Shown here: positions 33,232 through 63,936 of the stretch, piece by piece
How positions within the stretch are numbered: the first letter of the stretch is position 1
Layout of the letters: each line of letters begins with the position of its first letter
Source of the DNA: the human T2T-CHM13v2.0 reference genome, Homo sapiens
Reading direction: 5' to 3' (one strand)
Assembly: GCF_009914755.1 (NCBI RefSeq)
Contig: NC_060933.1
DNA: 64,000 nucleotides
Program-made: the position numbers and the translations under genes
The notes under the pieces: model-generated
Told to the model about the DNA's origin: nothing
What the model saw: the letters and a program-made list of their open reading frames with translations, nothing else
Database searches by the model: none

Positions 33232-33367
33232 ACAAAACCAAGAGAGTGGCATCAAAGAGTCTGTCTCCTGGGGCACTCAAAGGACCCAGGATGCACCCCA
33301 TGAGGCCAGGCCACCCCTGGAGCGTGGCCACTCCACAGAGATCCCTGTGGGGCGGTCAGGAGCACTG
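33232..33367 (+). CDS. CACNA1B: CACNA1B exon 42
   Basis: ccacag|A...CTG|gtgagc; 136 nt; QNQESGIKESVSWGTQRTQDAPHEARPPLERGHSTEIPVGRSGAL; phases consistent with neighbours. Confidence 0.94.
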
Positions 33368-33387: not shown

Positions 33388-33806
33388 GTGAGACTGGGTT
33401 GGGGGATGTGTGAACAGGGATGGGGGATGTTTGAGACTGGGGTGGGGGACGTGTGAACAGGGATGGGGGATTTTGAGACTGGGGTGGGGAACATGTGAGA
33501 CTTGGGTGGGGGACGTGTGAGACTGGGGTGGGGGATGTGTGAGACCAGGGTGGGGGACGTGTGAGACTGGGGTGGGGGATGTGTGAACAGGGATGGGGGG
33601 TGTGTGAGACTGGGATGGGGGATTTTGAGACTGGGGTGGGGGACGTGTGAGACTGGGGTGGGGAACATGTGAGACTAGGGTGGGGGACATGTGAGACTTG
33701 GGTGGGGGATGTGTGAGACCAGGGTGGGGGACGTGTGAGACTGGGGTGGGGGATATGTGAACAGGGATGGGGGGTGTGTGAGACTGGGGTGGGGGACGTG
33801 TGAACA
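33388..33806. repeat. 21-22-bp G-rich VNTR in CACNA1B intron 42 (~19 copies)
   Basis: Unit GAGACTGGGGTGGGGGACGTGT alternating with GAACAGGGATGGGGG variants. Confidence 0.93.
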
Positions 33807-33937
33807 GCAGTGGGAGTTAGGTGAGACTGAGATGGATTTGGGTGAGACCCCAGTGCCTCATGGAGTGAGTCCGGGGTGGGATCAGATGAGTCCGCGGTGC
33901 CTTGTGTGGTGGGACTAGGTGAGTGCTGTATCCACAG

Positions 33938-34054
33938 GCTGTGGACGTTCAGATGCAGAGCATAACCCGGAGGGGCCCTGATGGGGAGCCCCAGCCTGGG
34001 CTGGAGAGCCAGGGTCGAGCGGCCTCCATGCCCCGCCTTGCGGCCGAGACTCAG
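33938..34054 (+). CDS. CACNA1B: CACNA1B exon 43
   Basis: ccacag|GCT...CAG|gtaggt; 117 nt; AVDVQMQSITRRGPDGEPQPGLESQGRAASMPRLAAETQ (Cav2-conserved GRAASMPRL). Confidence 0.95.
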
Positions 34055-37286: not shown

Positions 37287-39900
37287 CTGCACCGTGACCG
37301 CTCAGACGCCTGCATGCAGCAGGCGTGTGTTCCAGTGGATGAGTTTTATCATCCACACGGGGCAGTCGGCCCTCGGGGGAGGCCTTGCCCACCTTGGTGA
37401 GGCTCCTGTGGCCCCTCCCTCCCCCTCCTCCCCTCTTTTACTCTAGACGACGAATAAAGCCCTGTTAGAGGATGCGGCTCTCTCTGTCCCCTTCCTGTCC
37501 TGCCTTCCTGGGTCTCGTACCACACACCAGACCCTAAACCGCAGGCTGCTGTGTGTGGCTGAGAAGGACCCAGGAGTCCAAATCCCGTGTCCTGGGACTC
37601 AGCATCCAGCATGGGTGCTTGGAGCCGTTGTGAGGAGCTCTGCGTCCTGTGGGGAGCACCCTTCACGTGGCCGTGCGGCACAGAGAAGCAGGGCCCACCT
37701 GAAAGTGCGCCGAGACCTCGGGACGGAGGGGATGGGGAGGGGGACACAGTCGTGGCTTGTGCAGCCCGCCAGTGTCAGCGAATGCTCACTCAGGCAAGCT
37801 CTGTCCTCCCTGGACACCGTCAGCCCCACAGGAACCGAGCTGGGAAGTGTTCTTGCTGTGGTTGTGATTTTTAATTGCAACACCTCTCATTCTTGTCACT
37901 TCTATATACGTGATGTAGAAAAAATGGAAAACCAGAAAAATGGGGAAGGAAATGTTCACATAACTTTAAAAAATCAAACCTGTGAAAGAAAGATGTCAGC
38001 TTTTTGCCACGTGTCTTTGTGGCTTATGCGAGGAGACTCCCTGTGCAGCCCTGTCCGGTCCAGGTGGACGTAGACGGCCCCTGGCTCTGCTGCTCTTGAC
38101 CAAGTGCCTGACCGCCAGGCCCTCACACCCAGGCTCCTGGGCACTGTGGTGTGAGGCGAGGCCTCGGGATCCATCACTGCAGGATGTTGTGAAAAGTACT
38201 CGCGATGGCAGCCAGGTAGCAAGCCCTTGCCAGTGGAGAGCACTGGATGTCATGGTGGCAAACAAGGCAGCCATTTGCTGTCCTCCTCCCACGAGTGGAA
38301 GGGGTTTCCAAGGAAGCCACAGGGCAGCTGACCACGTGCTTGTGTGAGGCATTTTCAGTCTGTTCTGCATATGATTCTCAGGGCACACTCTGTGGTATGT
38401 GAAATAGGTTTCCTTCCACATACAGCAGAAGAGAGGCAAAGGCTGGTAGGAAGGAGGAAGACATTGGCTGGGGGCTTGGATGTGGGGCCGTCAGGGCAGG
38501 AGGGAGGAAGCCCCAGCTGGAATGAAACTCAGAGCAAGTGACCGAGGGAGGACACGGCTCCTGCCACTGAGGCCGGGCACCTGATGCCCAGCACTGTCCT
38601 GGCGCCAGACACAGGGAGCAGGCAGTCAAGTGAGGTCTGACCCCCATGGCCACGCTCAGGAGAGAAAGACCATGCTCAGGACACTGTCCAAGGTGCACAA
38701 GATGCTGGGAGGTCCCTTGTTTGGTGAAGAAAGGGAGCATTTAGAGCAGTTGATGGTGGTGTGTCCTCCGTGTTCTGAAATTCCAGATGATCTGTGTTGG
38801 ATTCTTGGCTTCTACCCCATGATTCTCCTCAAAGAAATTGTGTGTGATGTGTGTGTGTGTGTGTGTGTGTGTGTCTGTGTCACAGGAGATGCAGTGCCTG
38901 TACAGGTGTGTTCAGTGTGTGGATGTCATTAACCCATAGGGCTATGCAACAAAAGACACATTTAATAGAAGTAAAACACACAAGACCGCTGCCTGGTCTC
39001 GGGGTTCAGCATGATTGTGACCAAACCTTTTTATAGAATTTCCTTACCTGAAGGCACAACACTCTGAAACTTTAAAGATAACAGAGTATTTTATTCCAAT
39101 AGAATAAACCAGGAATCTCGGACTGTGCATGTGATCACTGTGCTCCTGTTGCAAAGTAGAAGGATGTGTATTTTGACACTGACGTTTTGTCTCTTGTTCC
39201 CCAGCCCCCAGCCCATGTTATCTTGGGTGTCGAATGTGTCCATTCCATGCAGAACCACAGCCATTTCCCCAGGCAGTGTTGGGTCGAGAATCCACTTTTC
39301 TAAACCCACACAGCCTAGCTGGCTTGTCTAGACTCTTCTAGGCATTGGAATTGATGAAAACTACAGGGAGCGGGGAAAGGAGACATTATGTCTTGTTTTC
39401 CTGACTTTGGGTTTTGTTTCTCACTGTGTCTTCTCCGGCTATCATATATGTCCCCTGAATCTCATAGTGAGCTGCCAAATTTGAAGTGCATCACCCAGTT
39501 GTCTGCATCTGGAACCAGTCAAGCAGTGGCTGTAGTTTGAACAAGTTATGTGTGCATGTAACATATATACATATATACATATATACAAGTATGTGCATGA
39601 TAATGTATATCTTCGTACTTTTTGATACAATGTATTCATTTGTTAATTTTTAATTATATTTGATATAAATCAAAGGTTTGTTGCAAAACTTTATATTTAA
39701 GAAGTGTTAAAAAAAAAAAAAAGTCCCAACCATGCAACACAACTGGGACCTACTTAAAAAGAAATTCTGTGATTGACTAGTTTGCTGCCTGAGTCATATT
39801 TATCAGCCAAACTTTGGATTCTGCTGTTGTTTCTACAATGACATTTTGTATGAAGCAAAGTCCTTGAATTAAAATAAAAACTTAGCAAAAAATCAAAAAC
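37287..39900 (+). other. CACNA1B: CACNA1B 3' UTR (end approximate)
   Basis: Unique, repeat-poor sequence after the stop; (GT)n at ~38840-38880; AU-rich distal part; ends after ATTAAA/AATAAA at 39868-39878. Confidence 0.8.
39868..39878 (+). terminator. Distal polyadenylation signal of CACNA1B (overlapping ATTAAA and AATAAA)
   Basis: gaattaaaataaaaa preceded by TTTTGTA upstream element, followed by GT-rich sequence. Confidence 0.75.
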
Positions 39901-39980
39901 AAAACCCCACCATGCTGCCATTGGTATATGCAAGGGTGTGGGCCTGGGGTGCACTGCTAGGAGGGGTCAGAAGAAAGTGA

Positions 39981-40352
<372 letters not shown>

Positions 40353-40418
40353 TGAGAGTGTGGTGAGGATCAAGGGAGGCACTTGGCAGGAGGAGGCAGA
40401 TTCAACTTCCCTGGGGAT

Positions 40419-40471
40419 CAGGGTTAGGGTTGGTTAAGATTACAGTGGTGGGTTAGGGTTGGGGTTGGGTA
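40419..40471 (+). repeat. Short degenerate telomere-like patch
   Basis: cagggTTAGGGttgg...gggTTAGGGTTGGGGTTGGG. Confidence 0.5.
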
Positions 40472-40546
40472 GAGGAGGTTCTGGGAGGCTGTGTGAGTTT
40501 GGGGCACAGAGCTCCTCTTAAGATGCCCCAATAATCATTCGCTCTG

Positions 40547-41090
40547 CTGTTAAAATGTTAGGATATTGCTAGCTACATGCTGATAAGGACAAAGGGGACA
40601 TCCTTAAGAGAAACCTGGCACCATAAGTACAGATTAGGGCAGAGAAGGACATTCGAAAGAGATAGGCAGGCACAGTAGGTACAGACATGACCACTGTAGG
40701 ACCTTCCTGGAGTGGCAGGAAGGAGCCCAGCCCCAGCAGTGGAATCACACTGATCACTGCACATATGTGTCAGCCAACAGTGAGGGGGTCCCACAAGCCT
40801 GGGTGGGGCAAGTCAGGGATCTAAGGAAGGAGCAGGAGAACCAGACAAAGAAAAGAGGTGGAGACTTGAGGAATGTGAAGAAGTCCAACATAAAACTCCC
40901 TGCTCAGGACCCTGGGGCTGTGTTCCTGCAGATCAGCCCCACTTCTCCCTTGAGGCATACTTATTTTTTCTACAATAAGCTCTTTACACTATATTTCTTT
41001 TCAATGAAGTTATCTGCCATCTTTGTACTGCCTCTTGGTGAGAATCTTTCTTTCAAGTTAGACAAGAACTGGGACATCAGGTCTCCCCAG
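40547..41090 (+). mobile_element. ERV LTR-like element (family uncertain; resembles subtelomere-associated LTR60-type)
   Basis: TG start, TATA-like cataaaa, poly(A)-like region and U5-like tctttctttcaagttagacaagaac end. Confidence 0.5.
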
Positions 41091-41539
41091 TATTAGCTCC
41101 ATTTCAGTTTGAATTTGCAGAATTGATAGTGCTGAACAACCTGCACTCCAACTTTAAGTGGTGTAGGAAGAGGCCAGCAGGGTCAGACCCTGAAAACAGA
41201 CCAGCCACGTCTCCCAGGTGGACGCAGCGGGTTCTCCACGAGCGTGACTTGGGGATTTACGGCACTGAGACCGTGCTACCCACCCCCCCTTAAAAATCCC
41301 TCGTGGCTCCCAGTTGCCCTGAAGGGGAATCCCAAACTCTTCAGAGGCAGCACATGCTGGTGGGTGAGAGTTGGGAGCCTGAGTCCAAGTTCCAGCCTGG
41401 CTGCTATCGGCTGTGTGACCACTGGCAACTCGCCTAACCTCTCTGGGCCTCACGGGCTCGTTGGAGGATGTGGTGAGAGAATGACCGAGATGAGCTTAGC
41501 ACAGTGCTGGCCACACTGTCGCTGTTCAATGCCAGGTGG

Positions 41540-43560
41540 CTGTGGCAGCAACAGGGCCCTGCAGTGTCTCCAGCCGCCAGCAGGGTGCGTGCCGCCACTA
41601 CACTGGGAGCAAGAGGGCCCTGCAGTGCCCCCGGCCGCCAGCAGGGGGCGCGAGGCCATGACACCGTGAGCAAGAGGGCCCTGCAGTGCCCCCGGCCGCC
41701 AGCAGGGGGCGCAAGGCCATGACACCGTGAGCAAGAGGGCCCTGCAGTGCCCCCGGCCGCCAGCAGGGGGCGCAAGGCCATGACACCGTGAGCAAGAGGG
41801 CCCTGCAGTGCCCCCGGCCGCCAGCAGGGGGCGCAAGGCCATGACACCGTGAGCAAGAGGGCCCTGCAGTGCCCCCGGCCGCCAGCAGGGGGCGCAAGGC
41901 CATGACACCGTGAGCAAGAGGGCCCTGCAGTGCCCCCGGCCGCCAGCAGGGGGCGCAAGGCCATGACACCGTGAGCAAGAGGGCCCTGCAGTGCCCCCGG
42001 CCGCCAGCAGGGGGCGCAAGGCCATGACACCGTGAGCAAGAGGGCCCTGCAGTGCCCCCGGCCGCCAGCAGGGGGCGCAAGGCCATGACACCGTGAGCAA
42101 GAGGGCCCTGCAGTGCCCCCGGCCGCCAGCAGGGGGCGCAAGGCCATGACACCGTGAGCAAGAGGGCCCTGCAGTGCCCAGGCCGCCAGCAGGGGGCGCA
42201 AGGCCATGACACCGTGAGCAAGAGGGCCCTGCAGTGCCCCGGCCGCCAGCAGGGGGCGCAAGGCCATGACACCGTGAGCAAGAGGGCCCTGCAGTGCCCC
42301 GGCCGCCAGCAGGGGGCGCAAGGCCATGACACCGTGAGCAAGAGGGCCCTGCAGTGCCCCCGGCCGCCAGCAGGGGGCGCAAGGCCATGACACCGTGAGC
42401 AAGAGGGCCCTGCAGTGCCCCCGGCCGCCAGCAGGGCGTCCACACCGGGCCGAAGCGAGGGTGAAGCCCGCGTCCTCCTCGGCACAGACCCGGGGGGCAC
42501 CGCCTCGCTTTGGGACAACTCGAGGCCATGGTGAGTAAAATCCTTCCTGTTTGCAGCCCTGACTACTGAGGGTTAGAGACCAGTAAGCGGGGTCGGTGTG
42601 GGAAACTGGAAACCAAAAGCCCCTCTGAATCCTGCGCACTGAGGTTCTCCCCACCCAAGGCGAGGCGGGCGCAGTGCGAGGTCTACACCGCGGCCTTGGA
42701 ACACAAATGGAGCGTTCCTAATGCAGATATGCCTCCCGAAATACGAATGTGACACTCGCAGTGCTCAGGTAACAAACACCTGTAATGCTAATGCGCTGCC
42801 TCAATACAAAAATGTTAATATGAAACCCCATGCTCCCCACACGGCCCCGCAGTCCCCGCTCACAATAATCAACACTGACATAATCAAAACTAACGTAGCC
42901 TCCAGCTGCTCACAGCTGCTGCTGAGCTGGAGCTGCCTCGGGCTTGGCCTCCACAGTGGAGCTTGTTGTCGTATCTGCTTCACGGACGTGGAATTGACAC
43001 AGTTGTTTTAAAAAGTAGCTTACTTCCCAATAATTCCATACTTTCAGGAAACTTGCAGCGGTAGTGTGGAGTTTTCTTTCTCTTTTCTCTCAGATTCCTC
43101 AGCGGTTGTTGCTGAGCCAGATCTGCATCTCACAGAAAACACCCCAGTGTTTTTCACCCAAAACAGGGACCCCTCCCAGGTAAGCGCCAGGTGACCCCAG
43201 CGCAGGAGGCCACGTTTCTACCTGAGGGTCGTGTCCGCAGGCCCGTTTCACTTCGCAGCCATCATGGCTGGGTGGAAAATGTCTCTTTCCATCTGGGTCC
43301 AGTTTTCCTTTTCTGGAGCCTTCGCAGAGTTGAAGAGCAGAGCTGCCCCCAGCCTGGGTCTGCACAGCGGTTCCCCCTGGGCAGATGCAGACGCCGCACT
43401 CCAGGTGGGAACTCGCAGCCTCCGGCAGTGCTCCGCACAGCGAGTTCCCCGGAGGAGCACAGACCCACCCACACCCCACAGAGACCTCAGGGTGATTGCG
43501 ACAAAACTCTCCTTTACAAACAAGTCTCATCCCATCACTCTTCTTATTTAACTTTAACGA
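41540..43560 (+). repeat. TAR1 telomere-associated repeat, q-arm orientation
   Basis: 61-bp units, one 37-bp-repeat-like unit (gcgtcctcctcggcacagacccggggggcaccgc ~42470-42503), then typical TAR1 body (aaaatccttcctgtttgcagccctg..., cacaataatcaacactgacataatc). Confidence 0.85.
41611..42437 (+). repeat. 61-bp tandem array, 13 full units each with a CTCF consensus
   Basis: Unit AAGAGGGCCCTGCAGTGCCCCCGGCCGCCAGCAGGGGGCGCAAGGCCATGACACCGTGAGC; starts every 61 bp from 41611 to 42160, three 60-bp units (42160, 42220, 42280), then 42340 and a partial at 42401. Confidence 0.95.
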
Positions 43561-44113
43561 TGGTTTCCCACTGGCATCAGAACAGGGGTCGCAGAACTGA
43601 CCTGGCCCCCAGTCCCTGAGCGCTCCCACCTGCTGCCCTCTCCCGCCCAGCCCAGCCCAGCTGCCTGCGTTGCGGCCTCCACCTGCAGGGACACAGCAGG
43701 CTCTCGGGAGTCTTGGGAACTCTATGCACATCCAACACCCTCTTATCAAATACTCTTAAGATTCTGTCTACCTAGATCCTTCAAGTCACAGCGGTTATGA
43801 TGTCTAACAACACAAATGTTCTGACGTGATTTTTTTAGACCAAAAAAAAAATGTTTGGTAGATCATATGTGAGAATCACCCTTAATTTATAAATCAAGGA
43901 AATAGATACATAAAAGCAGAGTCCATATTTGGGATAATCAGTAAAGAAAAATAAAATCTCAACGCAGAATGAAAGGCAGAGGGCACCATTGATCATTGAA
44001 ATTTCATAAGAGTTTACTGGACAGAATATTACCTTACTATATTCTCCAGCCCTGTGTGTGTGTATGTGTGTGTATATCACACATATACCAGTTGCAAAAA
44101 ATTTCAGGTTTAA

Positions 44114-44438
<325 letters not shown>

Positions 44439-44480
44439 TACTCATGTTTACTTCATTAGTCAATACGGTTGATTAAGAAG

Positions 44481-44619
44481 TTAGGGTTAGGGTTGGGGTT
44501 AGGGTTAGGGTTAGTTTTAGGGGTTAGGGTTAGGGTTAGCTTTAGGGGTTAGTGTTGGGGTTTAGGGTTAGGGTTCGGGTTTGGGTTTGTGTAGTGTTAG
44601 GGCTAGGGTTTGGGTTAGG
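44481..44619 (+). repeat. Interstitial degenerate (TTAGGG)n telomeric tract
   Basis: About ten perfect TTAGGG plus TTGGGG, TTCGGG, TTTGGG, CTAGGG variants over 139 bp. Confidence 0.95.
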
Positions 44620-44722
44620 AGAATTGCTTGAACCTGGGAGGTGGTGGTTGCAGTGAGCTGAGAGTGTGCCACTGCTCTCCAGCCCAGGCGACAATGGGAG
44701 ATTCCGTCTCAAAAAAAAAAAA
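44617..44722 (+). mobile_element. 5'-truncated Alu right-arm fragment joined to the telomeric tract
   Basis: aggagaattgcttgaacctgggaggtgg...gtctcaaaaaaa starts inside the last TTAGG. Confidence 0.9.
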
Positions 44723-44804
44723 AGGATAGTAATACCTACTTTTAACAGTCATGAGCAACATTTTTTTTTAATGTGGGTCACTTCTTTATTTTTCTGATTG
44801 CTAG

Positions 44805-44932
44805 AGCCATGTCTCAAATGCAAACATCCTCGTGCTTACTTCATGCAGCTTCAGACTCGCTCTGCAGACGAGCTGATGACCACCTTCTACAAGTGCTGCA
44901 ATTCTCAGGGTGGACACTGCTGTAGGGATTAG
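44805..44932 (+). pseudogene. Unprocessed POLR3K (RPC10/C11) fragment: last coding exon with acceptor, followed by 3' UTR-like sequence
   Basis: tttttctgattgctag|AG CCA TGT...GAT TAG translates (E)[41 protein letters not shown]-stop; POLR3K ends [42 protein letters not shown]; no upstream exons in window. Confidence 0.92.
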
Positions 44933-45249
44933 GACTAGGATGGCCCAGCTGCTTCAGTGTGTGCTTACCTTGTCCCTTGGGGTAGATGCTTAGCTGGCAG
45001 TGTGAATCGTGTATCCTGAGGGTCTTTGCTGGTGTGGTGGAAAGACAAACCTTTTGAGGTGAAGAGCCAGGGTGTCAGGAAATGTGGCCTATCTGCTAGT
45101 CAGAGTGGATGAAGTCATGAATGTTGGGGAGTTTTTCTGTATGGGTAGGAGACGGAGACCCATAACTAAGTATGTGCTGTTTAAAGTCCTGTTCCTTCAT
45201 CTTCTACATTTATTGGCAGTTGACATTCCCTTACTCCCAATCAATACTA

Positions 45250-47820
<2,571 letters not shown>

Positions 47821-48354
47821 CAACTTCGATATGTTTTTTATAGGCAATTTTAAAAAAAATTTAATACTTCTTTATTTTTTTTGAATTTAACCTCAGAATG
47901 TGATTATAGGCAAAATTCAAAATGTAATAATAATTGAGTTTAATTTTTGTAATGTGGGTCTATTACTGAGAAGAGTGGATGCCATTTTGCTTAATTGGGG
48001 TTCACAGTTAATGTTCCCTGTCATCGAAATCAATTGCAAATGTGCATCTGTGAATGCTGGTTACGTGCAGGAGAGCAAATGAAGTACACCATTGACACCA
48101 CTGAAAGAGTCAATAGATTCACCACTGACAATGGATTCAGATATTTCCCACAGAGTTCTTGCTGATGAATAATACAGAGAAGCAGGTGTGGTGGCTCACA
48201 CTTGTCATCCTAGCACTTTGGGAGGCCAAGGTGGGTGGATCACCTAAGGTCAGAGGTTCGAGACTAGCCTGGCCAACATGGCAAAACCTCATCTCTACTA
48301 AAAATACAAAAATTAGCTGGGCATAGTGGTGCATGCTTGTAATCCCAGCTACTC

Positions 48355-49332
48355 TGTGGGGGAAAGGAAGAGAGATCAGACTGTTACTGTGTCTATGTAG
48401 AAAAAGGAAGACATAAGAAACTCCATTTTGATCTGTACTAAGAAAAATTCTTCTGCTTTGAGATGCTGGTAATCTGTAACCTTAGCCCCATCCCTGTGCC
48501 CACAGAAACATGTGCTGTGTTGACTCAAGGTTTAGGGGATTTAGGGCCGTGCAGGATGTGCTTTGTTAACAATGTGTTTGCAGGCAGTATGCTTGGTAAA
48601 AGTCATCGCCATTCTCCATTCTCCATTAACCAGGGACACAGTGCACTGCGGAAAGCCGCAGGGACCTCTGCCCAAGAAAGCCTGCGTATTGTCCAGGTTT
48701 CCCCCCAGTGAGACGGCCTGAGATATGGCCTCGTGGAAAGAGAAAGACCTGATCGTCCCCCAGCCCGACACCCATAAAGGGTCTGTGCTGAGGAGGATTA
48801 GTGAAAGAGGGAGGCCTCTTTGCAGTTGAGATAAGAGGAAGGCTTCTGTCTCCTGCTCGTCCCTGGGAATGGAATGTCTCGGTGTAAAACCCGACTGCAC
48901 ATTCTATTTACTGAGATAGGAGAAAACTGCCCTGTGGCTGGAGGTGAGACATGCTGGCGGCAATACTGCTCTTTACTGCACCGAGAGGTTTGTGTAAAGT
49001 CAAACATAAACCTGGCCTACATGCACATCCGGGCACAGCACCTTTCCTTAAACTTATTTATGACACAGATTCCTTTGCTCATGTTTTCCTGCTGACCCTC
49101 TGCCCACCATTACCCTATAGTCCTGCCACATCCCCCTTGCCGAGATAGTAGAGATAGTGATCAATAAATACTGAGGAACTCAGAGACCAGCACCGGTGCA
49201 GGTCCTCACTTGCTGAGCGCCGGTCCCCTTTTCTTCCTCTATACTTTGTCTTTGTGTCTTATTTCCTTTTCTCAGTCTCTTGTCTCCATCTTGCAAGAAA
49301 TACCGACAGGTATGGAGGGGCAGGCCCCTTCA
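48355..49332 (+). mobile_element. HERV-K (HML-2) solo LTR, LTR5B-like, inserted into an Alu
   Basis: TGTGGGGGAAAGGAAGAGAGATCAGACTGTTACTGTGTC...GGGGCAGGCCCCTTCA, 978 bp, AATAAA 49163-49168; Alu halves at ~48182-48354 and ~49339-49460; degenerate TSD CTACTC/TTACTT. Confidence 0.92.
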
Positions 49333-51618
49333 TTACTTGGGAGACTGAGGCAGGAGGATCACTTGAATCCGGGAGGCGGAGGTTGCAGTGAGCCAAAACC
49401 ATGCCACTGGACTCCAGCCTGGGTGATAGAGTGAGACTCCGTCTCAAAAATAATAATAATGATGATGAAGCAGTGAAAAACCGTACACTTTAAGCACTTT
49501 ATGATTTCACAGTCTTCATACATTTGTCCACCTAAGCTTGTTCCTGATCCACACATGCTTTTACCACTGCCAGTTTTAACACATATTAGTAGATTCCTGT
49601 TTTGCTGCATTAGTTTTCTCAACTTTGGTAATATTCTTGCTGCAGTTGTTGGTTTTCTTTTTGGAGACAGGGTCTCACTGTCACTCAGGTTGGAGTACAC
49701 TGGTGTGATAACGGCTCACCACAACCTAAACCTGCCGGGCTCAGGTGATCCTCCCACCTCAGCCTCCCAAGTAGCTGGGACTACAGGCGTGGGCCACCAT
49801 GCCCGGCTAATGGAGGGGGAAGGGCTGAGCTTGTCTGAAGACCCTCCCGTGGGTGTGGCAGAGCCTGTGGTCTGAGGCAGGGGTCCAGCTGCAGAGCAGC
49901 CCACAGCTTCGCAGTGGCCCAGGGAACCAGGGCAGGCAGGCCGTGGGGCCCAGTGCCTTCTGGGCCAGGCCTTGATGCTGAGGCCATGGAATAGGTGCGG
50001 CTCTGAGAAGGGACCAGAGTGACCATGGGCTGAAGGCTATGTCCACAGACCCAATGTGGCAGAAGCTGTGCCAGGCAGTGATGTCAGCCAGGCTCCCTAG
50101 CAGGTCTAGGGATGTCAGGGGCAGCTCTGTCCCAGGTGGCAGACACTGGTTTCCCCTCCTGCTCTCACAACTGTCCTGTGACCGGGTGTTGTCTGAGCTG
50201 TGGTGAGGCCTCCCTGGTGACATCCAGGAGCAGGGAGCATGTGGGTGGGGGGTGTGTGCACCTGCCCTGGCTGCCTGGCCCTGTGGCCAAGGATGGGGGA
50301 AGGCACTCCGCCTGCAGCTCCACCCCATTTGTAAAGCACTGTGTGCCTTCTGCTGGGGCATGTGCTGAGGGTGCCTCGCAGGCACTCCCCTCGGGAAGTT
50401 CACAGGCTTGTGTAGAAGCTGGTGGAAATGTGCTAAGAAGAGGTGTCAGGAGCCAGATATTGGGCAGGTCCCAGGTCTCTGAGCCTCAGTTTCTTCATCT
50501 GTAGGAGGGTGGTAACCCTGCCCTGCTCAGCTTACCAGGTACAGCTGTGAGTTTTCAGTGCAGAGGAAAAGCAGAGCCCTTCCCCTCAGATGGCCATATT
50601 GCCTTGTTGCTGTACCCAACTTTCCAGTGCTCCCCCAGGGGGTGTCCTGGCCTCCTCCTTTGTAGCTCTCAGATGTCACATGTGGGTCCTGCCGTACCAT
50701 CCCCTCTCCCTGTCTTGAAACGAGGCCTGCTGAGCTTGAAGCCACCCCACTCCATGCTCTCAAGCCATCTGCTCCTGGGTTAGCTTGTGGCTGGCCTGGC
50801 CTGATTCTACATAGATGTGGGTGTTTCTCCAGTGCTGGGGCAGCGGTTGTCCATTCTGGGGCCTGGGTCAGCTCTCAGCTATGGCTGTTGTGCCTGTGCT
50901 TCCCCAGGTCCTTGTGGTCACTCCAACCCTGCCCTCAGATATCCTAAGAGCAGGCTGACTGTCTTCCCCATTCCTACCTTTCCAGTAACTGTTGCACAAA
51001 GGGACAGACACTGCTGCAGAGAGCTTGCCACAGTGTTTCATGCTGCGGCTGGTGGTTCCAGGCTGCACGCTCCATTCTAGAAAGGGTGAGGATTACTGAT
51101 CATCAGTCTTAACAGGGGACTGTCCTATGGGTACCTGGATACGCTACCGGGAGTGGGGCAGAGTGGGGTTAGAGTAGTGCCTGATGCCCGTTGAGGGTGT
51201 GCGGGTTCCTTAAGAGTGTGCACCCTGTAGCCAGCACGTATGTCTGTTTTTTTTCTTCTCCTTATCACTAATCAGCCTTTGGTAACCAGGCTGGCCCTGC
51301 TTCCTGCCTACGGGCTATGGGTGTACCGTCTGGAGCTGCAAATGGGGTGATGGGGCATCAGTAGCCTTCCCACACCCAAGAACTTCCTGACACTCAGCGC
51401 CTCATCTCCAGCCAACCTCTGGCTCCCCCAGAGATCCTGGGACCCAGGCCTCACACTCCAGCAGGGGGGGGTCTTCGTCCTTCTGGTGGTGCTCTCCTTT
51501 GGAGGTACCGTCGAACAGGGGTGCAACAGATAGAATTCAGGAAGTGCCATCTGTTGCATGGATACCCTGCTGCCACCCTTGTCCACCTTCCTGGGGCAGA
51601 TCCTGGGATGGGTCTTTA

Positions 51619-51970
<352 letters not shown>

Positions 51971-54082
51971 ATAGAGGTTGTCTATGTGACTCTGGGCAAG
52001 TGATTTCTCCTCCTTCCCTTCTTGGGATTCAGCTCCTTGCCTGTGAACAGGGACAGTGCTTCTCCCTTACAGAGCTGTTGTGAGAATTAAAGTAGAAAAT
52101 GCACCTGTGGTGGTTGTTGGTAGTGAGTGGTTCCCCCGATCCCGACTCCCCTGCAGGATGGGGCCTGGGCCCAGGCACAGGGGATGGGCTGGCAGAGGAT
52201 GCCTGTCCCAGAGAGGAGCCTTCTTGGCAGACGTGGAGATCTAGCTGAGTCAGAGTCCAGGATCTAAGTTTGAGGGTGCATCTTACAGCCTGCAATCATG
52301 AGTCTTTGGCAGGGTCAAGCGGCCTTTCTGAGCTTTAGTTCCTTATCAGTAAACCCTGGGCAGTGGTGCCCAGCATCTTTCACAGGACACCATGTGAGTG
52401 CAGATGGAGATCCACTGAGCACTCTGCTAGGGAACAATTCATGGGGAGCACCCCTCCAGAGAGGGATGGCTCGCACAGGCCCTCAGCCCAGCCCCTTGCA
52501 GGCTGGACCTTGGAGAGTGAGGCCCTGAGACGAGACATGGGCACCTGGCTTCTGGCCTGCACCTGCGTCTGCACCTGTGTCTGCTCGGGAGTCTCTGTCT
52601 CAGGGGATGGACAAGGTGAGGGCTGGGCACTAGTGTCTGTATGAGGTGGGTGGAGAACTAGGGTATGTTTGGGGGACTGGGTTGTCCAATGTCGAGCCCC
52701 TAGGGAAAGGTTTGGCCCAAACTGTGCTGGGGCATGTCCTCTAGGGGTCAGCCTGGACCTCTGTCTCTAGTCTCTCTTCCTTTACCTCCCTACCTCCGGT
52801 CCCTGGACCGACCCTTCCTTCACCCTCTTGACACCTCTCTGGTTCTGACTTGCCCATGTACCATGGGTCAGAGCCCATCACTTCCCAGGCCTCCCAGTGC
52901 TTCCCTGGACAGATTCTGGGGTCATTCACTGGTGACTGCCCTGCTAGGATGTCAGCTGTCGGATCCCCCCCAACCCCCCAACTCAGCTCTCTTCTGAAGC
53001 ACTCACTGTGGGCTCCCAGCCGTCACTGTCTCCAGGGCCAAGGGCTGGAACCTCCACCTGCCTCACCAACAACATTCTCAGGATTGATTGCCACTGGTCT
53101 GCCCCAGAGCTGGGTCAGGGCTCCAGCCCCGGGCTCCCCTTCATCAGGTGAGGGTGGAGGGCCATGCCCACCTGGATAGGGATGAGGGTGAGGATTGCAG
53201 CAGCTGCACCAGGATAGTGTAGCAGCCCCGTGGTGCTGACACATGCCCTTTTCAGCAACCAGGCTGCTGGTGGCACACAGAAGTGCATCTGGCAGGGCAG
53301 TGAGTGCACTGTAGTGTTGCCGCCCAAGGCAGCACTCCTGCCATCTGACAATTTCATCATCACTTTCTACCACTGCGTGTCCGGGAGGGATCGGGTCAGC
53401 CTGGTGGACCTGTAGTACCTGCCCTGGAGACACGGTGAACAGCAGCTATAGGCCTGGGGCAGGGCCCCTTGGCAAGAACATCCTGGCTGCCTGGGGGCTG
53501 GGAGAAAGGCCCTGCAGCCTGCGACCCCCGTGGCCCAGTAAGTGTTCTCAGTCCCTGCCAAGTAAGATCCAGGGCTGGGGGCAGGCTTGGCCCCTGGGAA
53601 GGGAGGGTCCACGTGGTTACTGCAGGGGCCAAAGGAAGTCACTGCTGTCCTGTCCCGCCTGGGGCTTTTCTGGACCAGTCTCCCAGTGAGGTGTCTGGTC
53701 TGAGAGGGTCTTGACCATGCCCCTTGGGAATCTTTCAGATCCCCAGTCTTGGGTGTGCTGACTGACACACCCAGACCCATGGGGCTTCAGCCTTACATGG
53801 ATTCTCTCTGTTCCTGTGAAGCTGGACCCACTCTGACTTGCAGAGCACGTCATCTCGCCACTGCATCCTGACCTGGAGCCTCAGTCCTGCCTTGGAGTCA
53901 GTGACCACACTTCTCAGCTATGAGCTGGCCTTCAAGAGGCAGGAAGAGGCCTGGGAGGTAACACTTTGGCTGGCTTTTCTCCTGGGGGCCTCTCTCCTGG
54001 GAGCAGCAGTCCAGGGCAGACTCCCCACTCTAAATAAGGCGAGGTCAACTTGGAGTGATGAGGAGGGGAGGAACTGGAGCCA

Positions 54083-54555
54083 GGTGTGTGTGTGCACACA
54101 CAGGCTGACATTTACATGTGTGTGCTTCATGTGTGTGTATGTGAGTAGGGTGAGTGTGCCTGTGTCTCTGTGTGTGCACATAAGTGTGGTAAGTGTGCAT
54201 GTGTTTATGTGTGCACTTACAAGTGTGCCCATGTTTGTGTTTGTAAGTGTACATATGAGTGTGTCTGCACCTTGTGTTTGTATGTGTGAGTGTGCACATG
54301 GGCATGCCTGTGTGTACGTGTATGTGAGTGTGGTGAGTTGCTTCTGTGCACACACTCGTGTATATGAGTGTGCATGCAAGTGTGCCTGTAGACATGTTTG
54401 CCTGTGTATGCATATTTGTATTTGTGGGCAAACGCTGTATCTGTGTGTGAGTGTGCCTTCTCTGTGTGTGTGTGTGCACGTGAACATGGCGAGTGTGCCT
54501 GTGTGAACACAGGTGCATTCATGTATGTGTTATGTGAGCGTGTGCGTGTGTGTAT
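54083..54555. repeat. GT-rich low-complexity tract in IL9R-pseudogene intron
   Basis: Imperfect (TG)n. Confidence 0.85.
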
Positions 54556-57500
54556 TCTCAAGGGCTGAGGGACCCAGCCCCACCTTCAGCACCTGCCAAC
54601 TGTCGCCACCCCCACAGCGGGCCCAGCGCAGGGATCACATTGTCGGGGTGACCTGGCTCATACTTGAAGCCTTTGAGCTGGACCCTGGCTTTATCCTTGA
54701 GGCCAAGCTGCGTGTCCAGACGGCCATGCTGGAGGATGACGGGGCACAGGCCGGTGGAGCGAGGGGAGCCAGCCCGTGTGCTTCCAGGCTCCCCAGAGAC
54801 AAGGTGGGCGCTGCTATGGCTGCCGCACTTCCAGAGTCTGGGCTGGGTGTCCCCCACTCCCTTTCAGCCTCCTGGAAGCCCCTCCCTGAGGCAGCCATGT
54901 CCCAGTTGACCCCCTTCCTCTGAAGGTCTGAGGTCTGCAGGGAGGACACAAACACCTGCCAACTCTGGGGCTTCCTGGGAACCTGTAGTCAGTGGCTCCT
55001 GTTAGGAGTGAGGGTGGCAGGGCTGCACACCAGGGCTGGGCTCCTGCCTGGAGGCTGGACATGACCTCAGTGTCCTTAATGGGGGCTGGACTGACCCTTG
55101 CGCACTGCAGTGCTGAGACGGCCCAGGGACTTTATGACCCACCGTGTGGCAGATGGGAAGAGTGAGGCCCAGGAGTGTGGTTCACACAAGGTCCTTCAGC
55201 AGGTGACACAAACCTCCAAGGCCCATCACAAGGTCCTTCAGCAGGTGACACAAACCTCCAAGGCTCATCACAAACCTTCCACTTTGGCCCAGGGCACTAA
55301 AGGGCGCACCTTTGCCAGGTGGGTTTGGGGGGAGCCTCCTGGCACTGAGGCTGCTCACAGCCCTGGGCCCTTCCTGCCCACGGACCCTCTGATCCCACCC
55401 TGGGGGTGGCCAGGCAACACCCTTGTTGCTGTGTCCATCTTTCTCCTGCTGACTGGCCCGACCTACCTCCTGTTCAAGCTGTCGCCCAGGTAGGTGGCTG
55501 ATGTGTGCGTGTGTGTACATGTGTGAGCGGGCAAGAGTGTGCATGTTAGTGTATGTGTGCAGATGTGTGACTGTGTGCATGTGTGAGTGTGTGGTGGGTG
55601 GGCCGTCAAGGGCCGCCCTTGTCTGGTTCCTCCCCTCCCCTCTCCACTGCCTGGTCCTGGATGGGGTGGGCTTTTCGAGTCTCCACCCTGGTCCAGAAGA
55701 GGGTTCTCAACTTGCCAGGGGAGAGCAGGGAAGGGGGGTCTGAGGCAGAGGCTGAAGATAAGGGCAGCTTGGTCCCGACCAGTCCCAGAGTCACCGAGAT
55801 CAAGAGCCCGGGGTCCTAGTCTCCTGCCTCTGGAGGAGCTTGGTTTGTTCATTTGTTCAATGTTCTACAAAAGGACAGTTGGGGCATCTGGTGTACACAG
55901 GACCCTCTTCTCACCCTGGCCGATGCCTTAGAGAACAAGATGGACAAGGACCCTCCTTAAATAAACCATCACGCCTCATGCACCACATGTCAGGTTACAA
56001 GAGGGAGTGCAGGGGCCATGTCAGGCGGAGGATGTGAGGAAGAGGGTGTGGGGAGAGGGGTGTTGGGTGGGGCTAAGCGGGAGGGTGCTTGGCTTCTCCT
56101 TGGAGCAAAGGAAAGTGTGAAACTGTGTAATACGACCTAGTTTATGTTTTGAGGAATGGATTGCTGGGAAAGGGGACATGGGGGACCTGCTGGAGGCCAA
56201 TGGGGGCCAGTGGGGTGCCCACAGGGAGATGATTTGGCGTGAGCCAGTGAAAGAAGTGGAGATAGAGCAAGGTGGAGGGAATTGCAGGGTCTTAGGGGGA
56301 GAAATAGAGGGGACGTGTGGCTGGATGAGATACGAGCGGTGACCCCTGAGGTGGGGAAATGGGGCACAGCCTTGCGGGGAGGTTGGCGAGGTCTATTTGC
56401 ACCTCTTGGGTTGGAGCCCCAGGTGACATCCTTGTGGGAGGGTCACTGGATCCTTGGCAGCAAGTCAGGTGCTCAGGGAGACACTGGGTGGGGTGGGAGC
56501 CACAGACGTGCTGATGGCAAAGACAGAGTTCCTGGAGGTGCGGCTCCCTCCGCCGGCTGAGGATCTAGCTGACAACTCCCCGTTCTGAACCCGCCATCGC
56601 AGCTCATGCTGTAAAGGACGCGCGCCTCAGTATAAGTCAGTTCTATGCGGCCATTAGGCAAGGAGGCCCAGTTGGGTCCTGCCCTGAGAGTGGGTTGGGA
56701 TGTGATGAGATGGGAGAGAGGCAGTGGCAGGGACGAGGTGGGCGGACCTCCTGCTGATGGAAGGAAGCTCAGCCTCTGCAGTGACCTCAGGCCACCTGGG
56801 TCCCCATAGGCCTCTGACTGGCCTCTCCTGGCCTCAGGGTGAAGAGAACCTTCTACTAGAATGTGCCCTCTCTAGCAGTGTTCTTCTAGCCCCTCTACGG
56901 TGTGCACAATGGGAACTTCCAGGTGTGTGCAGAGACCACGGCAGGGCGTCGGGGGCAGGTGTTGCCCAGAGCTCTGGCCTGCCAGAGATGTTGGCTTTCA
57001 TGAGGGTTGGCGGCCAGTATGGGAAACTTGTCAGTGCTTGGAGCCTTTTCTGTATATTCAGTGTATTTCAATTTATACGCTGTGTCTCCAGTGGGGAAAA
57101 ACTAGCTTTATTCTCCGTTACTGATTTTTCTTTTTGTTCTCATGTCTCCAGTTCCACTGTTGATGGAAAAATGTAAATTTCTCATGACTTATCTCTGTCC
57201 CCTCTGGTTTGCGGCTGTCTGCACCCACCATGTGCCTCACCTCCTCCTTCTGCGAAGGTGTCTGTCCCTTGGCTGTGGGGAAGGGTCTGTGGTGTGTGCG
57301 CTGCCCTTGGGGCTCTCACTGCCTCTGGGCTCCTGCTCTGCCTGGTCCCCTGGTCCCCTGGTCCCCTGGTCCCCACAGATCGCATGCTGGCACCACAGCT
57401 GTGGAGTGGGCTCTGCAATTCCCCGTCTGTGGCCCTGTTGGGCCCCCACAGCCCAGGAACCAGTGAGCAACTTGGGGGTTGCATCAGCCCCTCCCCTCCC

Positions 57501-58266
57501 TGCTGGGCTGGCGGTTCATGCCCCCTGGGTGGGAGGAGGGGGAGAGGGAGGGCTCCATTGAATGGTCTCTGGTTGTTCCCCTCAGACTCCTCACTTTGGG
57601 CAAAGGACAAGAAGCAGTGAGGGCCCCTCCCTGGGGTCTGGGCCAAGCTGACCCCTCTTCTCCAGGATCTTCCCTCCCTGTGCCCTAGGGCATCCCTGGG
57701 CCCTGTGCAGCAAGGATGTCCCTTCCACACCGCGGCTCCAACTTACTATGCAGAAAAATCCTTTTTTCTCTCAATGAGGAGCCTAGTTTTCAAGATTTTT
57801 GTCCAAATGTTCAATTTGAACCATAAACCAGGCACCTGGCTCTTCACAGAGTCTCCCCCTTTCCCCAAGGTGGTAGGTGTGACTGTCACGAGCCTGGGCA
57901 GCCTAGTACAAGGCTGAGCAGGGCACAGATCGCGACTGTCCCCTGGACTGTCATCCTGTTGCAGGCACCAGCCCTTCCCTAGAGAATCAGGGCACCTGCC
58001 AGGGGTTATTTAGACCCGCGGGTGGGGATCTGGTGCCGTAGGTTTGTCTCCAGGGAGCAGTGCAGTGACAGAGGGTGTGTTGTGTGTTTAGGGAGCAGTG
58101 CAGTGACGGAGGGTGTGTTGTGTGTTGTGCATGGGATGGAGGTTCCTGGTCTCACCAAGGGAACAGCTTCCTTTTGGAGGCGGGGGCCGCCTGTGGCCCC
58201 ACAGAAGGATCCAGGTCTGCTCGCCTTAGCCCAGTGCTTTGAAAGTCACCAGTCCTGACAGCGACT

Positions 58267-58539
58267 TGTGTGTGTGTGTGTGTGTGTTTGTGTGTGTGTC
58301 TGTGTGTATGTCTGTGTGTGTCTGTGTGTGTTTATGTGTGTGTGTTTGTGTGTGTCTGTGTGTGTATGTCTGTGTGTCCGTGTTTATGTGTGTGTGTCTG
58401 TGTGTGTCTGTGTGTCTGTGTGTGTTTGTGTGTGTATGTGTGTGTCTGTGTGTATCTGTGTGTGTTTGTGTCTGTGTGTGTTCGTGTGTGTGTGTTTGTG
58501 TGTGTCTGTGTGTGTTTATGTCTGTGTGTTTGTGTGTGT

Positions 58540-58597
<58 letters not shown>
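58267..58597. repeat. Compound (GT)n/(GTCT) microsatellite, ~330 bp
   Basis: Interrupted GT repeat ending in a pure run. Confidence 0.95.
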
Positions 58598-58598
<1 letters not shown>

Positions 58599-59789
58599 GG
58601 GAATGCCCAGTCTCTGCAGCTGCTGAAAGGCCCTGAGGCACATGCTGTCAGGAGCTGGCTCTGTCCTGGGCAGATATCACCATCTGTACCTCGGTTCAGG
58701 CTGCCGTGGGCACCAGGTCCTGTGCTGGGGGAGTGCTGAGAGGCCTGAAGGGATTCAGGGTCCCGTGATGAGGCTGGGCTGGCACATGGAGGAAAGACAG
58801 AATGTCCAAGACACAGGCGCTGCTTGGCCTCTGGGTGTGGACCTCAGGAGGGCTTCCTGGAGGAGGAGGGATGCTGGGCTTGCCAGAAAGGAGGCAGCTG
58901 CTCCCAGGATGAGTTCTGAACATGCTACCTGAGCCCTTCCCTCCTCCTGCACTCTGTTCCAGACTCGGATGGGAGGCCCACAGGGCCGGTGTGCTGTGAG
59001 CCAGGACTGTGCTGGCACCCGACGAGGAGCCTTGGAGCCCTGCATCCAGGAGGCCACTGCACTGTTCACCTGTGGCCCAGCGGGTCCTTGGAAATCTGTG
59101 GGCCTGGAGGAGGAGCAGGAAGGCACTGGGACCTGAGCTCAGAGCATGTGCTGCCAGCAGGGTGTACAGAGTGGAGGGCACAGCCCCTTGCCTATCTGCC
59201 ACAGGAGGACTTGGCCCCCACGTCCCCCACCAGGGCATGTTACTCCCTTCCGTCCTTAGCAAGGCTTGGTCCTGGATGTCCTGGGTCCCTGACTTGCCAG
59301 ATGAATCATGTCCATTTTGGGAAAATGGACTTAAGTCTCCGGAGCCCTTGTCTGGGACTGAACCTCCTGAGAATGGGCCCCTAGCAGTGGTTGGAGGTCC
59401 TGTCTGGATGGAGGCTCAGGGGCAGCTTCAGGGAGAAAGGATCCCTCCGCTCAGTGCCTGTGGGGAGCAGCCTCTACCCTCAGCATCCTGCCCACAGGTT
59501 CTTCCTTCCGCTGTCCCTTTTCTTTATCCCTGGCCTCTCTGAGAAGAGGGGTGTGGTCTCTCAGCTGTTCCACCATCATCCCCTTAAAGGGCCAGCCTGG
59601 GCCCAGTGTACACAGGTAAGGCACCATGACCACCTGGTGTGACCTCTCTGTGCCTTCCTGAGGCACCTTTCTAGAGATTAAAAGGGGCTTCATGGCTGTT
59701 CCAAAGTGCTGATGGCTGGGAAGAGGGGCCAGAGGAGGAGTGAGGGGTGAGGTTTGGCCAGCCCTAGGCTTTCTGGGCTCTAGGGACAG

Positions 59790-60270
59790 CCTGGTGGATG
59801 CTCAATGACAGTTTCGGGGACAGCAGGGTGGAGGCTCAGGGGCAACTCCAGGGACAGCAGGGTGTAGGCTCAGGGGAAGCTCCGGGGACAGCAGGGTGGA
59901 GCCTCAGGGGCAGCTCCGGGGACAGCAGGGTGGAGCCTCAGGGGCAGCTCCGGGGACAGCAGGGTGGAGGTTCAGGGACAGCTCTGGGCTAAGGTAAGGG
60001 TGGAGGCTCAGGGGCAGCTCCGGGGACAGCAGGGTGGAGGTTCAGGGACAGCTCTGGGCTAAGGTAAGGGTGGAGACTCAGGGGCAGCTCTGGGGACAGC
60101 AGTAGTGGAGGCTCAGGGACAGCTCTGGGCTGAGGTCAGGGTGGAGGTTCAGGGGCAGCTCTGGGGACAGCAGGGTGGAGGCTCAGGGACAGCACTGGGC
60201 TGAGGTCAGGGTGGAGGCTCAGGGGCAGCTTCATGGACAGCAGGGTGGAGGTTCAGGGACAGTTCCCGGG
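59790..60270. repeat. ~30-bp G-rich minisatellite downstream of IL9R pseudogene
   Basis: Unit GGGGACAGCAGGGTGGAGGCTCAGGGGCAGCTCC-like, ~15 copies with a higher-order two-unit pattern. Confidence 0.9.
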
Positions 60271-60478
60271 AGGCCAGAGCCCTCATTCCTCCTTGTCCTC
60301 ATCCTCCCACTTGCTCCTAGAAACTGAGAGATGAGGCTGGAGCTCCCAGTCAGTGCTGGAAATGACCATCCAGCAGTGATGGTGGCCTGTGAAGGGTCCT
60401 GCTTCTGTCCTCAGCCTCTCATGGGGTGGGTTTGAGGGAGAGCTGTGGTCTGGAGAGAGCGGCAGATGGAGCAGAACG

Positions 60479-63083
<2,605 letters not shown>

Positions 63084-63114
63084 ATCTTCTTTGATTACTA
63101 TCTCAATGAGTTCC

Positions 63115-63725
63115 CGTCAAGGCTGGGGATGGCGGGCTCCATTTCAGTCGAAATTTCCAAAATATCGGCCTGGAAAAATCCAGACGCTGATTTTTAGAGA
63201 TTCTCCAGAGCTGCCGCGAGGGGGCGCCCGGCCCTGCCAAACCCTGAGGGCTGCGCGCGCGAACCGTGTCCGAACCGCACGGCGGCGGCGTGGGGCGTCC
63301 ACTGTGAGGACGGAGCTTCCTCTCCTCAGCACCCACCCCGGAGGGGCCGGGGCTTCGGGACACCTGGGGCCACGTCCGCTGTGAAGACAGGGAGACGCTC
63401 CGGGACACCTGGGGCCGCCGAGGAGAAAGTGAGAAAAAGGCTTTCTGCCCCCGCTGTGAGTGCCGCGGAGCGAGCGCGGCGCGTTTCCCGTCTGGCCATT
63501 TGTACCCGGACTTCACTTTGTACCAGCGTCCCTTCATGGAGGCTTGGGCGGCTCACCCCCAGCACAGGACAAGATGCCGGTTACGGATGCGATTTTGTTT
63601 CTGGGGAGAGACCCTGGTCCCGGGAGAAGCGGAGGAACGTGGAGACGCCGTTGTGCCGTCGGGCGGTCTGGAGGTTGGGGACTGGCAGGGGCCACAGCCT
63701 GAGGCCGAGGTAACAGACGCCCCCT
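63115..63725 (+). promoter_or_regulatory. CpG island, candidate promoter/first exon
   Basis: Dense CpG; CTCF-like CCGCGAGGGGGCGC at 63214-63227; donor-like GAG|GTAACA at 63709/63710. Confidence 0.6.
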
Positions 63726-63727
63726 GA

Positions 63728-63936
<209 letters not shown>

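What the first reader, a model, noticed from the sequence alone, without database searches (positions are those of the whole stretch)
41611..42437. Homogeneous array of 13 co-oriented CTCF consensus sites 1.7 kb after the CACNA1B poly(A) signal
Seen: each unit carries CCGCCAGCAGGGGGCGC; units are almost identical while flanking TAR1 is diverged, and three adjacent units share a 1-bp deletion, indicating recent stepwise expansion. Known: the 61-bp subtelomeric repeat binds CTCF/cohesin at TERRA promoters, where units are usually fewer and more diverged. Inference: a copy-number-variable, CpG-methylation-switchable boundary insulating a neuronal channel gene from subtelomeric chromatin, possibly also a Pol II termination roadblock. 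The 29-bp TERRA-promoter repeats are absent here.
Basis: partly seen in the sequence, partly recalled or inferred. Interest (0 to 1): 0.7.

Follow-up and report, generated by a model that had tools for sequence, protein, structure and literature searches.

The report
Amplified CTCF array in telomere relic
An old chromosome-end repeat stranded just behind the brain calcium-channel gene CACNA1B has multiplied one unit into 13 near-identical, same-direction matches to the binding site of the insulator protein CTCF, has a twin on chromosome 18, and likely acts as a one-way chromatin barrier, though binding is untested.

Summary
The array is real: 13 exact, co-oriented CTCF cores at 41635-42380 in 61/60-bp units. 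It is the 61-bp repeat of an interstitial TAR1 relic 225 kb from the 9q end, which lacks about 0.5 kb of the 29/37/46-bp promoter island and carries a 361-bp templated insertion.

New here: (1) one unit type was amplified, pairing a 21.5-bit core with a perfect upstream (ZF9-11) motif at the 8-bp register; 1 of 192 units from 25 other TAR1 copies is that good. (2) A twin with 12 cores lies on 18p, in a duplication that starts 437 bp past CACNA1B and excludes the gene. (3) The methylation-sensitive core position 2 is CpA, not CpG, so a direct CpG switch is unlikely. (4) An unrelated 53-bp minisatellite 2.2 kb behind the FAM20C poly(A) signal has the same design.

Extended, CTCF-bound 61-mer arrays beside internal telomere-like repeats are already in print. 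Binding, methylation, allelic variation and any effect on CACNA1B are untested. Verdict: new variant of a known kind, moderate interest.

The parts
39873..39904 (+). CACNA1B poly(A) signal (AATAAA) and annotated 3' end
   Evidence: hub annotation
40341..63900 (.). Segmental duplication shared with chr18:229134-252544 (inverted); proximal breakpoint at 40341, where the 18p copy abuts 7 telomere-type hexamers
   Evidence: long blocks 96.5-98.7% identical, one VNTR-containing block 93%
40414..40470 (+). Degenerate telomere-like hexamers proximal to TAR1
40507..41182 (+). TAR1 proximal part, 79-83% identical to other TAR1 copies
41183..41544 (+). 361-bp insertion matching non-TAR1 DNA at C9:141625205 (95%) and C22:23960753 (91%); stands where the first 61-bp units lie in other TAR1 copies
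41547..41607 (+). Older-type 61-bp unit with a weak core (9 bits)
41608..42397 (+). 13 amplified units, each an upstream CTCF motif + linker + strong core (20.8-21.5 bits)
42157..42336 (+). Three 60-bp units; the missing base is in the linker between upstream motif and core (8 to 7 bp)
42398..42452 (+). Terminal unit: left half like the amplified unit, right half resembling the last unit of canonical TAR1 arrays
   Evidence: by eye
42460..42899 (+). TAR1 distal part, resuming at the last 46-bp-like unit; about 0.5 kb of CpG-rich 29/37/46-bp DNA of L027/L030 is missing before it; 42437-42900 has CpG o/e 0.80
44480..44619 (+). Degenerate interstitial telomere-like repeat, 23 hexamers, 77% match

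Best explanation
The array is the 61-bp repeat of an old, interstitial TAR1 chromosome-end relic in which one unit carrying a full two-part CTCF match was amplified to 13 co-oriented copies, and it likely binds several CTCF molecules in most cell types and would stop cohesin arriving from the telomere side. Shown: TAR1 origin, unit anatomy, loss of the promoter island, 18p twin, orientation. Inferred: amplification and shuffling by unequal exchange or gene conversion, before or across the 9q/18p duplication; occupancy; a one-way barrier at the proximal edge of the duplicated subtelomeric block. It is predicted to be insensitive to CpG methylation at the level of base read-out. It probably arose by ordinary minisatellite turnover, not for CACNA1B.
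For: Cores score 20.8-21.5 bits (p 2-5e-8) with the recalled MA0139.1 matrix; the next best site in the 64-kb window scores 16.2. All 13 have a 0-mismatch upstream motif, 10 at the 8-bp register, the same register as the IL3 insulator probe, where that motif was required for insulation. TAR1 61-mers bind CTCF/cohesin, including an extended 7.3-copy array beside an internal telomere-like repeat. TAR1 tiles show very high CTCF ChIP ratios. Terminal TAR1 copies carry 2 or more CTCF on one fibre. Insulation rises with the number of strong tandem sites, in cited experiments and in Akita. ZF1 sits on the 3' side of the core and loops extrude on that side, which here is distal. Core C2 is followed by A.
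Against: No occupancy, methylation or contact data for this locus were seen. Most interstitial TAR1 repeats lack accessibility and CTCF occupancy in CHM13, and TAR1 is largely closed in HG002. The array is GC 74%, CpG o/e 0.48, and has lost the island that might keep it open. A CpG-to-TpG variant in 3 units on 18p suggests germline methylation at some time. No reverse motif of 12 bits or more lies between the array and 10 kb past the window; the further 190 kb were not scanned. A VNTR inside CACNA1B is listed as an eVNTR for TUBBP5, across the array, which may be linkage. Akita dosage tests used 180-bp spacing, not 61. Two preprints state that the CTCF N-terminus faces away from the telomere at TAR1, the opposite of the structural reading.
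Confidence: 0.52

Rival explanations
1. Inert minisatellite: the array is methylated and nucleosome-covered in most cells. Its strong motifs are a by-product of GC-biased turnover of an old TAR1 unit and do nothing.
For: Most interstitial TAR1 repeats are unbound. The promoter island is lost. 7 of 10 differences from the family majority are A/T to G/C, as GC-biased conversion or CpG retention would give. Core triples are not rare: 62 hits against 47 for the reversed control pattern. No RefSeq functional element is listed here (hub table). The locus was not among the eVNTR rows seen (that file was cut and one file was not searched).
Against: The amplified unit is in the top 1 of 192 for core plus upstream motif. 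A weaker internal array is bound. Position 2 is not a CpG. Multi-mapping to 18p and within the array would hide it from short-read annotation (inference).
Confidence: 0.3
2. One reading: a copy-number-variable, methylation-switched boundary that tunes CACNA1B by shielding it from subtelomeric chromatin. The switch could be indirect (nucleosomes, linker CpGs) or by neuronal CpA methylation at core position 2.
For: The array sits 1.2 kb distal to the unique/duplicated junction and its orientation blocks extrusion from the distal side. There are 4 CpGs per unit. CpA at positions 2-3 can be methylated. Precedent: CTCF-site number in the HRNR VNTR tracks predicted folding and nearby expression.
Against: There is no CpG at the sensitive position. 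The twin on 18p has no CACNA1B. The promoter is about 248 kb away (hub table). No allele or eQTL data were found.
Confidence: 0.1
3. Termination aid: a wall of bound CTCF 1.7 kb past the poly(A) site slows Pol II and limits read-through into the subtelomeric pseudogenes.
For: Position and sense orientation. The FAM20C array has the same layout, 2.2 kb past AATAAA. IL3 sites with the upstream motif are reported to block read-through.
Against: Two cases only, one of them found by a motif search without a genome-wide background. The 18p twin has no matching gene end upstream. No transcription data were available. The listing showed no paper on this locus.
Confidence: 0.08

Closest known systems
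TAR1 61-29-37 TERRA promoter (Nergadze 2009 and Deng 2012, seen only as citations; Le Berre 2019, PMC6600276)
   Same: Same 61-bp family, same orientation towards the telomere-type strand, CpA at core position 2.
   Different: Interstitial (225 kb from the end); the 29/37-bp island is missing; units are homogenised (99% against 65-72%); 13 cores of 20 bits or more against 0-3 per copy.
ITS-adjacent extended 61-mer arrays (Stong 2014, PMC4032850)
   Same: Internal, next to telomere-like repeats, near a duplication boundary, longer than terminal arrays; CTCF/cohesin-bound in that study.
   Different: 7.3 copies with a CpG-rich 23-mer and a Pol II peak there; 14.6 copies of one unit and no 29/23-mer here.
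CTCF-bearing VNTRs and macrosatellites (HRNR VNTR, PMC10234305; DXZ4, D4Z4 and the 1q23 tRNA VNTR from search listings)
   Same: Tandem copies multiply CTCF sites; number is proposed to tune folding.
   Different: DXZ4 and the tRNA VNTR have kilobase units; here one two-part site fills about half of each 61-bp unit.
Tandem insulator sites with the upstream motif (IL3 +2.9 kb, PMC12885311)
   Same: Upstream motif plus core at the 8-bp register; tandem copies.
   Different: Those were tested in reporter assays and are conserved across mammals; this array is untested and repeat-derived.

Membership tests
TAR1 telomere-associated repeat | Homology to subterminal TAR1 on both sides of the 61-bp array | tested here: met
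   79-83% over about 680 bp proximal and 75-82% distal. The family name rests on position next to terminal repeats and on the papers; no repeat library was run.
TAR1 telomere-associated repeat | 61-bp units with CTCF-like cores, oriented towards G-rich telomere-type repeats | tested here: met
   telomere-like tract at 44480-44619
61-29-37 TERRA promoter | 29-bp (NRF1) and 37-bp CpG-island repeats after the 61-bp array | tested here: not met
   about 0.5 kb absent. TRF also finds no 29-bp array in L005 and L006, so the loss is not unique.
61-29-37 TERRA promoter | Within about 3 kb of a terminal telomere tract | tested here: not met
   Contig length 150,617,247; the array ends 225 kb short of it
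Two-part (upstream + core) CTCF site | Strong core match | tested here: met
   13 of 13 at 20.8-21.5 bits with a recalled matrix
Two-part (upstream + core) CTCF site | Upstream motif at the common register (5-bp linker + 3 bp before CCA) | tested here: met
   10 of 13 on 9q and 6 of 12 on 18p at 8 bp; the others at 7 bp, within the 7-10 bp range but not the common one; chance rate 0.00025 per site
CTCF insulator / loop anchor | CTCF and cohesin occupancy in cells | not testable with these tools
   No ChIP or Fiber-seq data; figure S10B of the Dubocanin preprint may hold it, but only the legend was readable
CTCF insulator / loop anchor | Convergent partner site or insulation in contact maps | tested here: inconclusive
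   No reverse motif of 12 bits or more distal to the array in the window or the next 10 kb; the remaining 190 kb were not scanned
Methylation-sensitive CTCF site (H19 type) | CpG at core positions 2-3 | tested here: not met
   C2-A3; CpG only at 12-13; meaning
VNTR (polymorphic minisatellite) | Unit number differs among human alleles | not testable with these tools
   One haploid genome; the paralogues differ, 14.6 against 13.6 copies; no row for the locus in the supplements searched

The most novel reading that the evidence does not exclude
The human genome holds a small class of 'CTCF minisatellites': 50-60-bp units that each encode a full two-part CTCF site, amplified to 12-15 co-oriented copies about 2 kb behind a poly(A) site (CACNA1B, and independently FAM20C). 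They act as copy-number-tunable one-way walls for cohesin and read-through Pol II. Single-base linker variants would switch the ZF9-11 contact unit by unit, and short-read ChIP would miss them through multi-mapping.
Probability: 0.15. Interest if true: 0.72.

Novelty: new variant of a known kind. Interest (0 to 1): 0.42.

Why it matters
If bound, these are among the densest strong CTCF clusters in the genome under the patterns searched. They form a natural dosage series at 61-bp spacing, with a control twin on 18p that lacks the neighbouring gene. That makes the question of how site number, spacing and upstream-motif register set barrier strength testable in existing pangenome and Fiber-seq data. 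If unbound, they show that 13 near-perfect sites can stay silent once the TAR1 island is lost. A role in CACNA1B regulation is possible but has no support yet.

Tried and rejected
Structured RNA: no Rfam match in 39000-46000. Special DNA hairpin: three units fold no better than shuffles, z -0.80. TERRA-type promoter: rejected, the island is missing. Uniqueness of the array: rejected by the 18p twin and the chr7 minisatellite. 'Thirteen motifs imply selection': rejected as an argument, since they are one amplified unit and the reversed control gave 47 against 62 hits. Source of the amplified unit: the unit tree had too few columns and did not place it with support; the closest canonical units are 82% identical. 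Shared origin of the chr7 array and TAR1: blastn found no alignment between the two arrays. Published data on this locus: none in the listings of searches, or in the supplements searched. The Stong supplements and Deng 2012 could not be read, and bioRxiv supplements and all figures were not seen, so peak tables there may already cover it. Motif triples were searched only at 38-68 bp period; longer periods were not searched.

Full report
Observation. The window holds a 61-bp tandem array at 41547-42436 (14.6 copies, 97% match). Splitting on a fixed anchor gives 15 units: one older-type unit, 13 near-identical units with the exact 17-mer on the + strand, and a partial terminal unit. A search allowing one mismatch finds the same 13 and none in 100 shuffles. 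The first strong core is 1,731 bp after the annotated CACNA1B end; AATAAA is at 39873. Three adjacent units are 60 bp; two are identical and the first has an extra C>A.

What surrounds it. A search of the own genome with 40400-43000 gave 74 matches from 40 scored of 210 candidates, so the set is a lower bound. The proximal flank 40507-41182 is 79-83% identical to TAR1 copies at many chromosome ends and a few internal sites, and the distal flank resumes at about 42460. Relative to L027/L030, about 0.5 kb of CpG-rich 29/37/46-bp DNA is missing between the array and that point, and no 29-bp unit is detectable. A 361-bp insertion (41183-41544) matches non-TAR1 DNA on chr9 (95%) and chr22 (91%) and stands in place of the first units. 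Degenerate telomere-like tracts lie on both sides, at 40414-40470 and 44480-44619. The chromosome end is 225 kb away. This is an old, rearranged chromosome-end relic; roughly 20% divergence suggests tens of millions of years (inference from recalled primate rates).

The twin. Window 40341 to at least 63900 is duplicated, inverted, at chr18:229134-252544. The flanks next to the array differ by 10 of 1,205 and 8 of 964 bases, which suggests a duplication or last exchange a few million years ago (recalled rates). The breakpoint is 437 bp past the CACNA1B end. Before it, the six longest matches to chr18:220-290 kb are about 320 bp at 81-86%, Alu-sized. On 18p a short telomere-type tract abuts the breakpoint, which suggests 18p was the recipient; no outgroup was available. 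The 18p array has 12 strong cores, and 6 of 12 units are 60 bp, interspersed. One 60-bp variant is shared with 9q, one is private and is a CpG-to-TpG change. 48 of 156 cross-chromosome unit pairs are identical. So the amplified unit predates the duplication or moved by conversion, and units have been shuffled since.

How it differs from other TAR1 arrays. Inner units are 98.9% (9q) and 97.4% (18p) identical pairwise, against 64.6-72.3% in 11 other loci with 6-11 position-specific units (11 of the 25 loci were used there). With the JASPAR MA0139.1 matrix, recalled from memory, sites of 20 bits or more number 13 and 12, against 0-3 in each of 25 other loci. Each 9q unit also has a perfect upstream motif; it is 8 bp from the core in 10 of 13 units and 7 bp in the 60-bp units. 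The 8-bp register is that of the IL3 insulator probe and the common '5-bp linker' form; the upstream motif gave 3-fold stronger binding and was required for insulation there (PMC12885311, passages and Introduction). Among 192 units from 25 other loci, 18 reach 20 bits and 1 also has the upstream motif in register. The family majority scores 16.4 bits; the amplified unit differs from it at 10 positions, 7 of them A/T to G/C. GC-biased turnover or CpG retention can therefore explain the strong motif without selection.

Genome-wide context. An exact two-part pattern gave 37 hits: 13 on 9q, 11 on 18p and 13 single sites with a 6-bp linker. Pairs of strong cores at 54-69 bp period gave 46 hits, 23 of them in these two arrays; the others are 6 single TAR1-type pairs and 17 in clusters on chr14, 15 and 16 (IGHV-type, label recalled). 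A looser triple pattern gave 62 hits against 47 for the reversed control and revealed chr7:363,137-363,929: 15 copies of 53 bp, 13 cores of 20 bits or more, each with an upstream-like motif (1-2 mismatches) at 8 bp. It lies 2.2 kb after an AATAAA behind the last Fam20C-family exon, in sense orientation, and does not align to this array.

Mechanism. ZF3-7 read the core, ZF9-11 the upstream motif and ZF1 the 3' side (PMC10484683, passages). Loops extrude on the N-terminal, downstream side. All 13 sites would thus face the telomere and stop cohesin coming from the duplicated block. Barrier strength rises with the number of strong tandem sites (PMC11828424, passages and section 12), though tested at 180-bp spacing. 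The core has CpA at positions 2-3 and CpG at 12-13. Methylation at 2-3 blocks binding and at 12-13 slightly enhances it, and Le Berre drew the same conclusion for subtelomeric sites (PMC6600276, passages). A direct CpG switch is therefore unlikely; indirect occlusion or neuronal CpA methylation remain open.

Against this reading. Most interstitial TAR1 repeats lack CTCF occupancy (bioRxiv 2022.05.09.491186, passages and legends), and TAR1 is largely closed in HG002 (PMC13174434, passages). No reverse partner was found in the next 31 kb, and 190 kb were not scanned. An intronic CACNA1B VNTR is an eVNTR for TUBBP5 across the array (PMC10234305, one supplement row). Both preprints give the opposite N-terminus direction for TAR1, which I could not reconcile.

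What is known. Stong 2014 (PMC4032850, passages) describes a 7.3-copy 61-mer array beside an internal telomere-like repeat with CTCF and cohesin peaks, and CTCF/cohesin enrichment at such sites in general. TAR1 tiles are strongly CTCF- and BORIS-enriched in K562 (PMC5007689, passages and 2 of 29 supplement rows). A 9q IL9R duplicon block is listed by Ambrosini 2007 (PMC2323237, passages). CTCF-site dosage by a VNTR is proposed for HRNR. CTCF at CACNA1B exon 37a is a separate, known site (PMC7124252, passages). PMC10589630 (passages) had nothing on TAR1. I found no description of this homogenised array in the listings of searches or in the supplements; subscription papers, figures and the Stong supplements were not visible.

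Verdict. A real and unusually clean variant of a known element: a TAR1 member, not a TERRA promoter, predicted to work like a tandem two-part CTCF insulator. Occupancy is the open step and can be settled from existing long-read data. Interest 0.42.

Noticed in passing
G000:C7:363137-363929 (L041:338-1130): 53-bp minisatellite, 15 copies, 13 strong CTCF cores each with an upstream-like motif at 8 bp, 2.2 kb behind the FAM20C AATAAA in sense orientation; no alignment to the TAR1 array.
   Followed up: partly
window 41183-41544: 361-bp templated insertion matching C9:141625205 (95%) and C22:23960753 (91%); the donor pair may be the 9q34/22q11 duplicon near ABL1 and BCR (recalled, not checked).
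   Followed up: partly
window 28068-29348: 44-bp, 29-copy VNTR in a CACNA1B intron; it matches by length, motif and position the eVNTR listed for TUBBP5 in sun-exposed skin.
   Followed up: partly
window 59783-60271 and L032 (chr18:232760-233422): 34/70-bp VNTR overlapping the annotated silencer; 14.1 copies on 9q, 19.1 on 18p.
   Followed up: no
L034-L035 (chr18:258983-265460): 68-bp satellite array (87.5 copies) followed by a 79-copy telomere-like tract, proximal to the 18p copy: an older chromosome end of another type.
   Followed up: no
window 33388-33829: G-rich 22/43-bp VNTR between CACNA1B exons 33232-33367 and 33938-34054.
   Followed up: no
L003-L027 (25 TAR1 copies): The strong cores point towards the telomere-type strand, so by the crystal structure the CTCF N-terminus faces the telomere; two preprints state the opposite.
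   Followed up: partly
window 63211 and G000:C9:150415555: The same 16.2-bit forward CTCF motif recurs in a locally duplicated segment, also twice on 18p.
   Followed up: no
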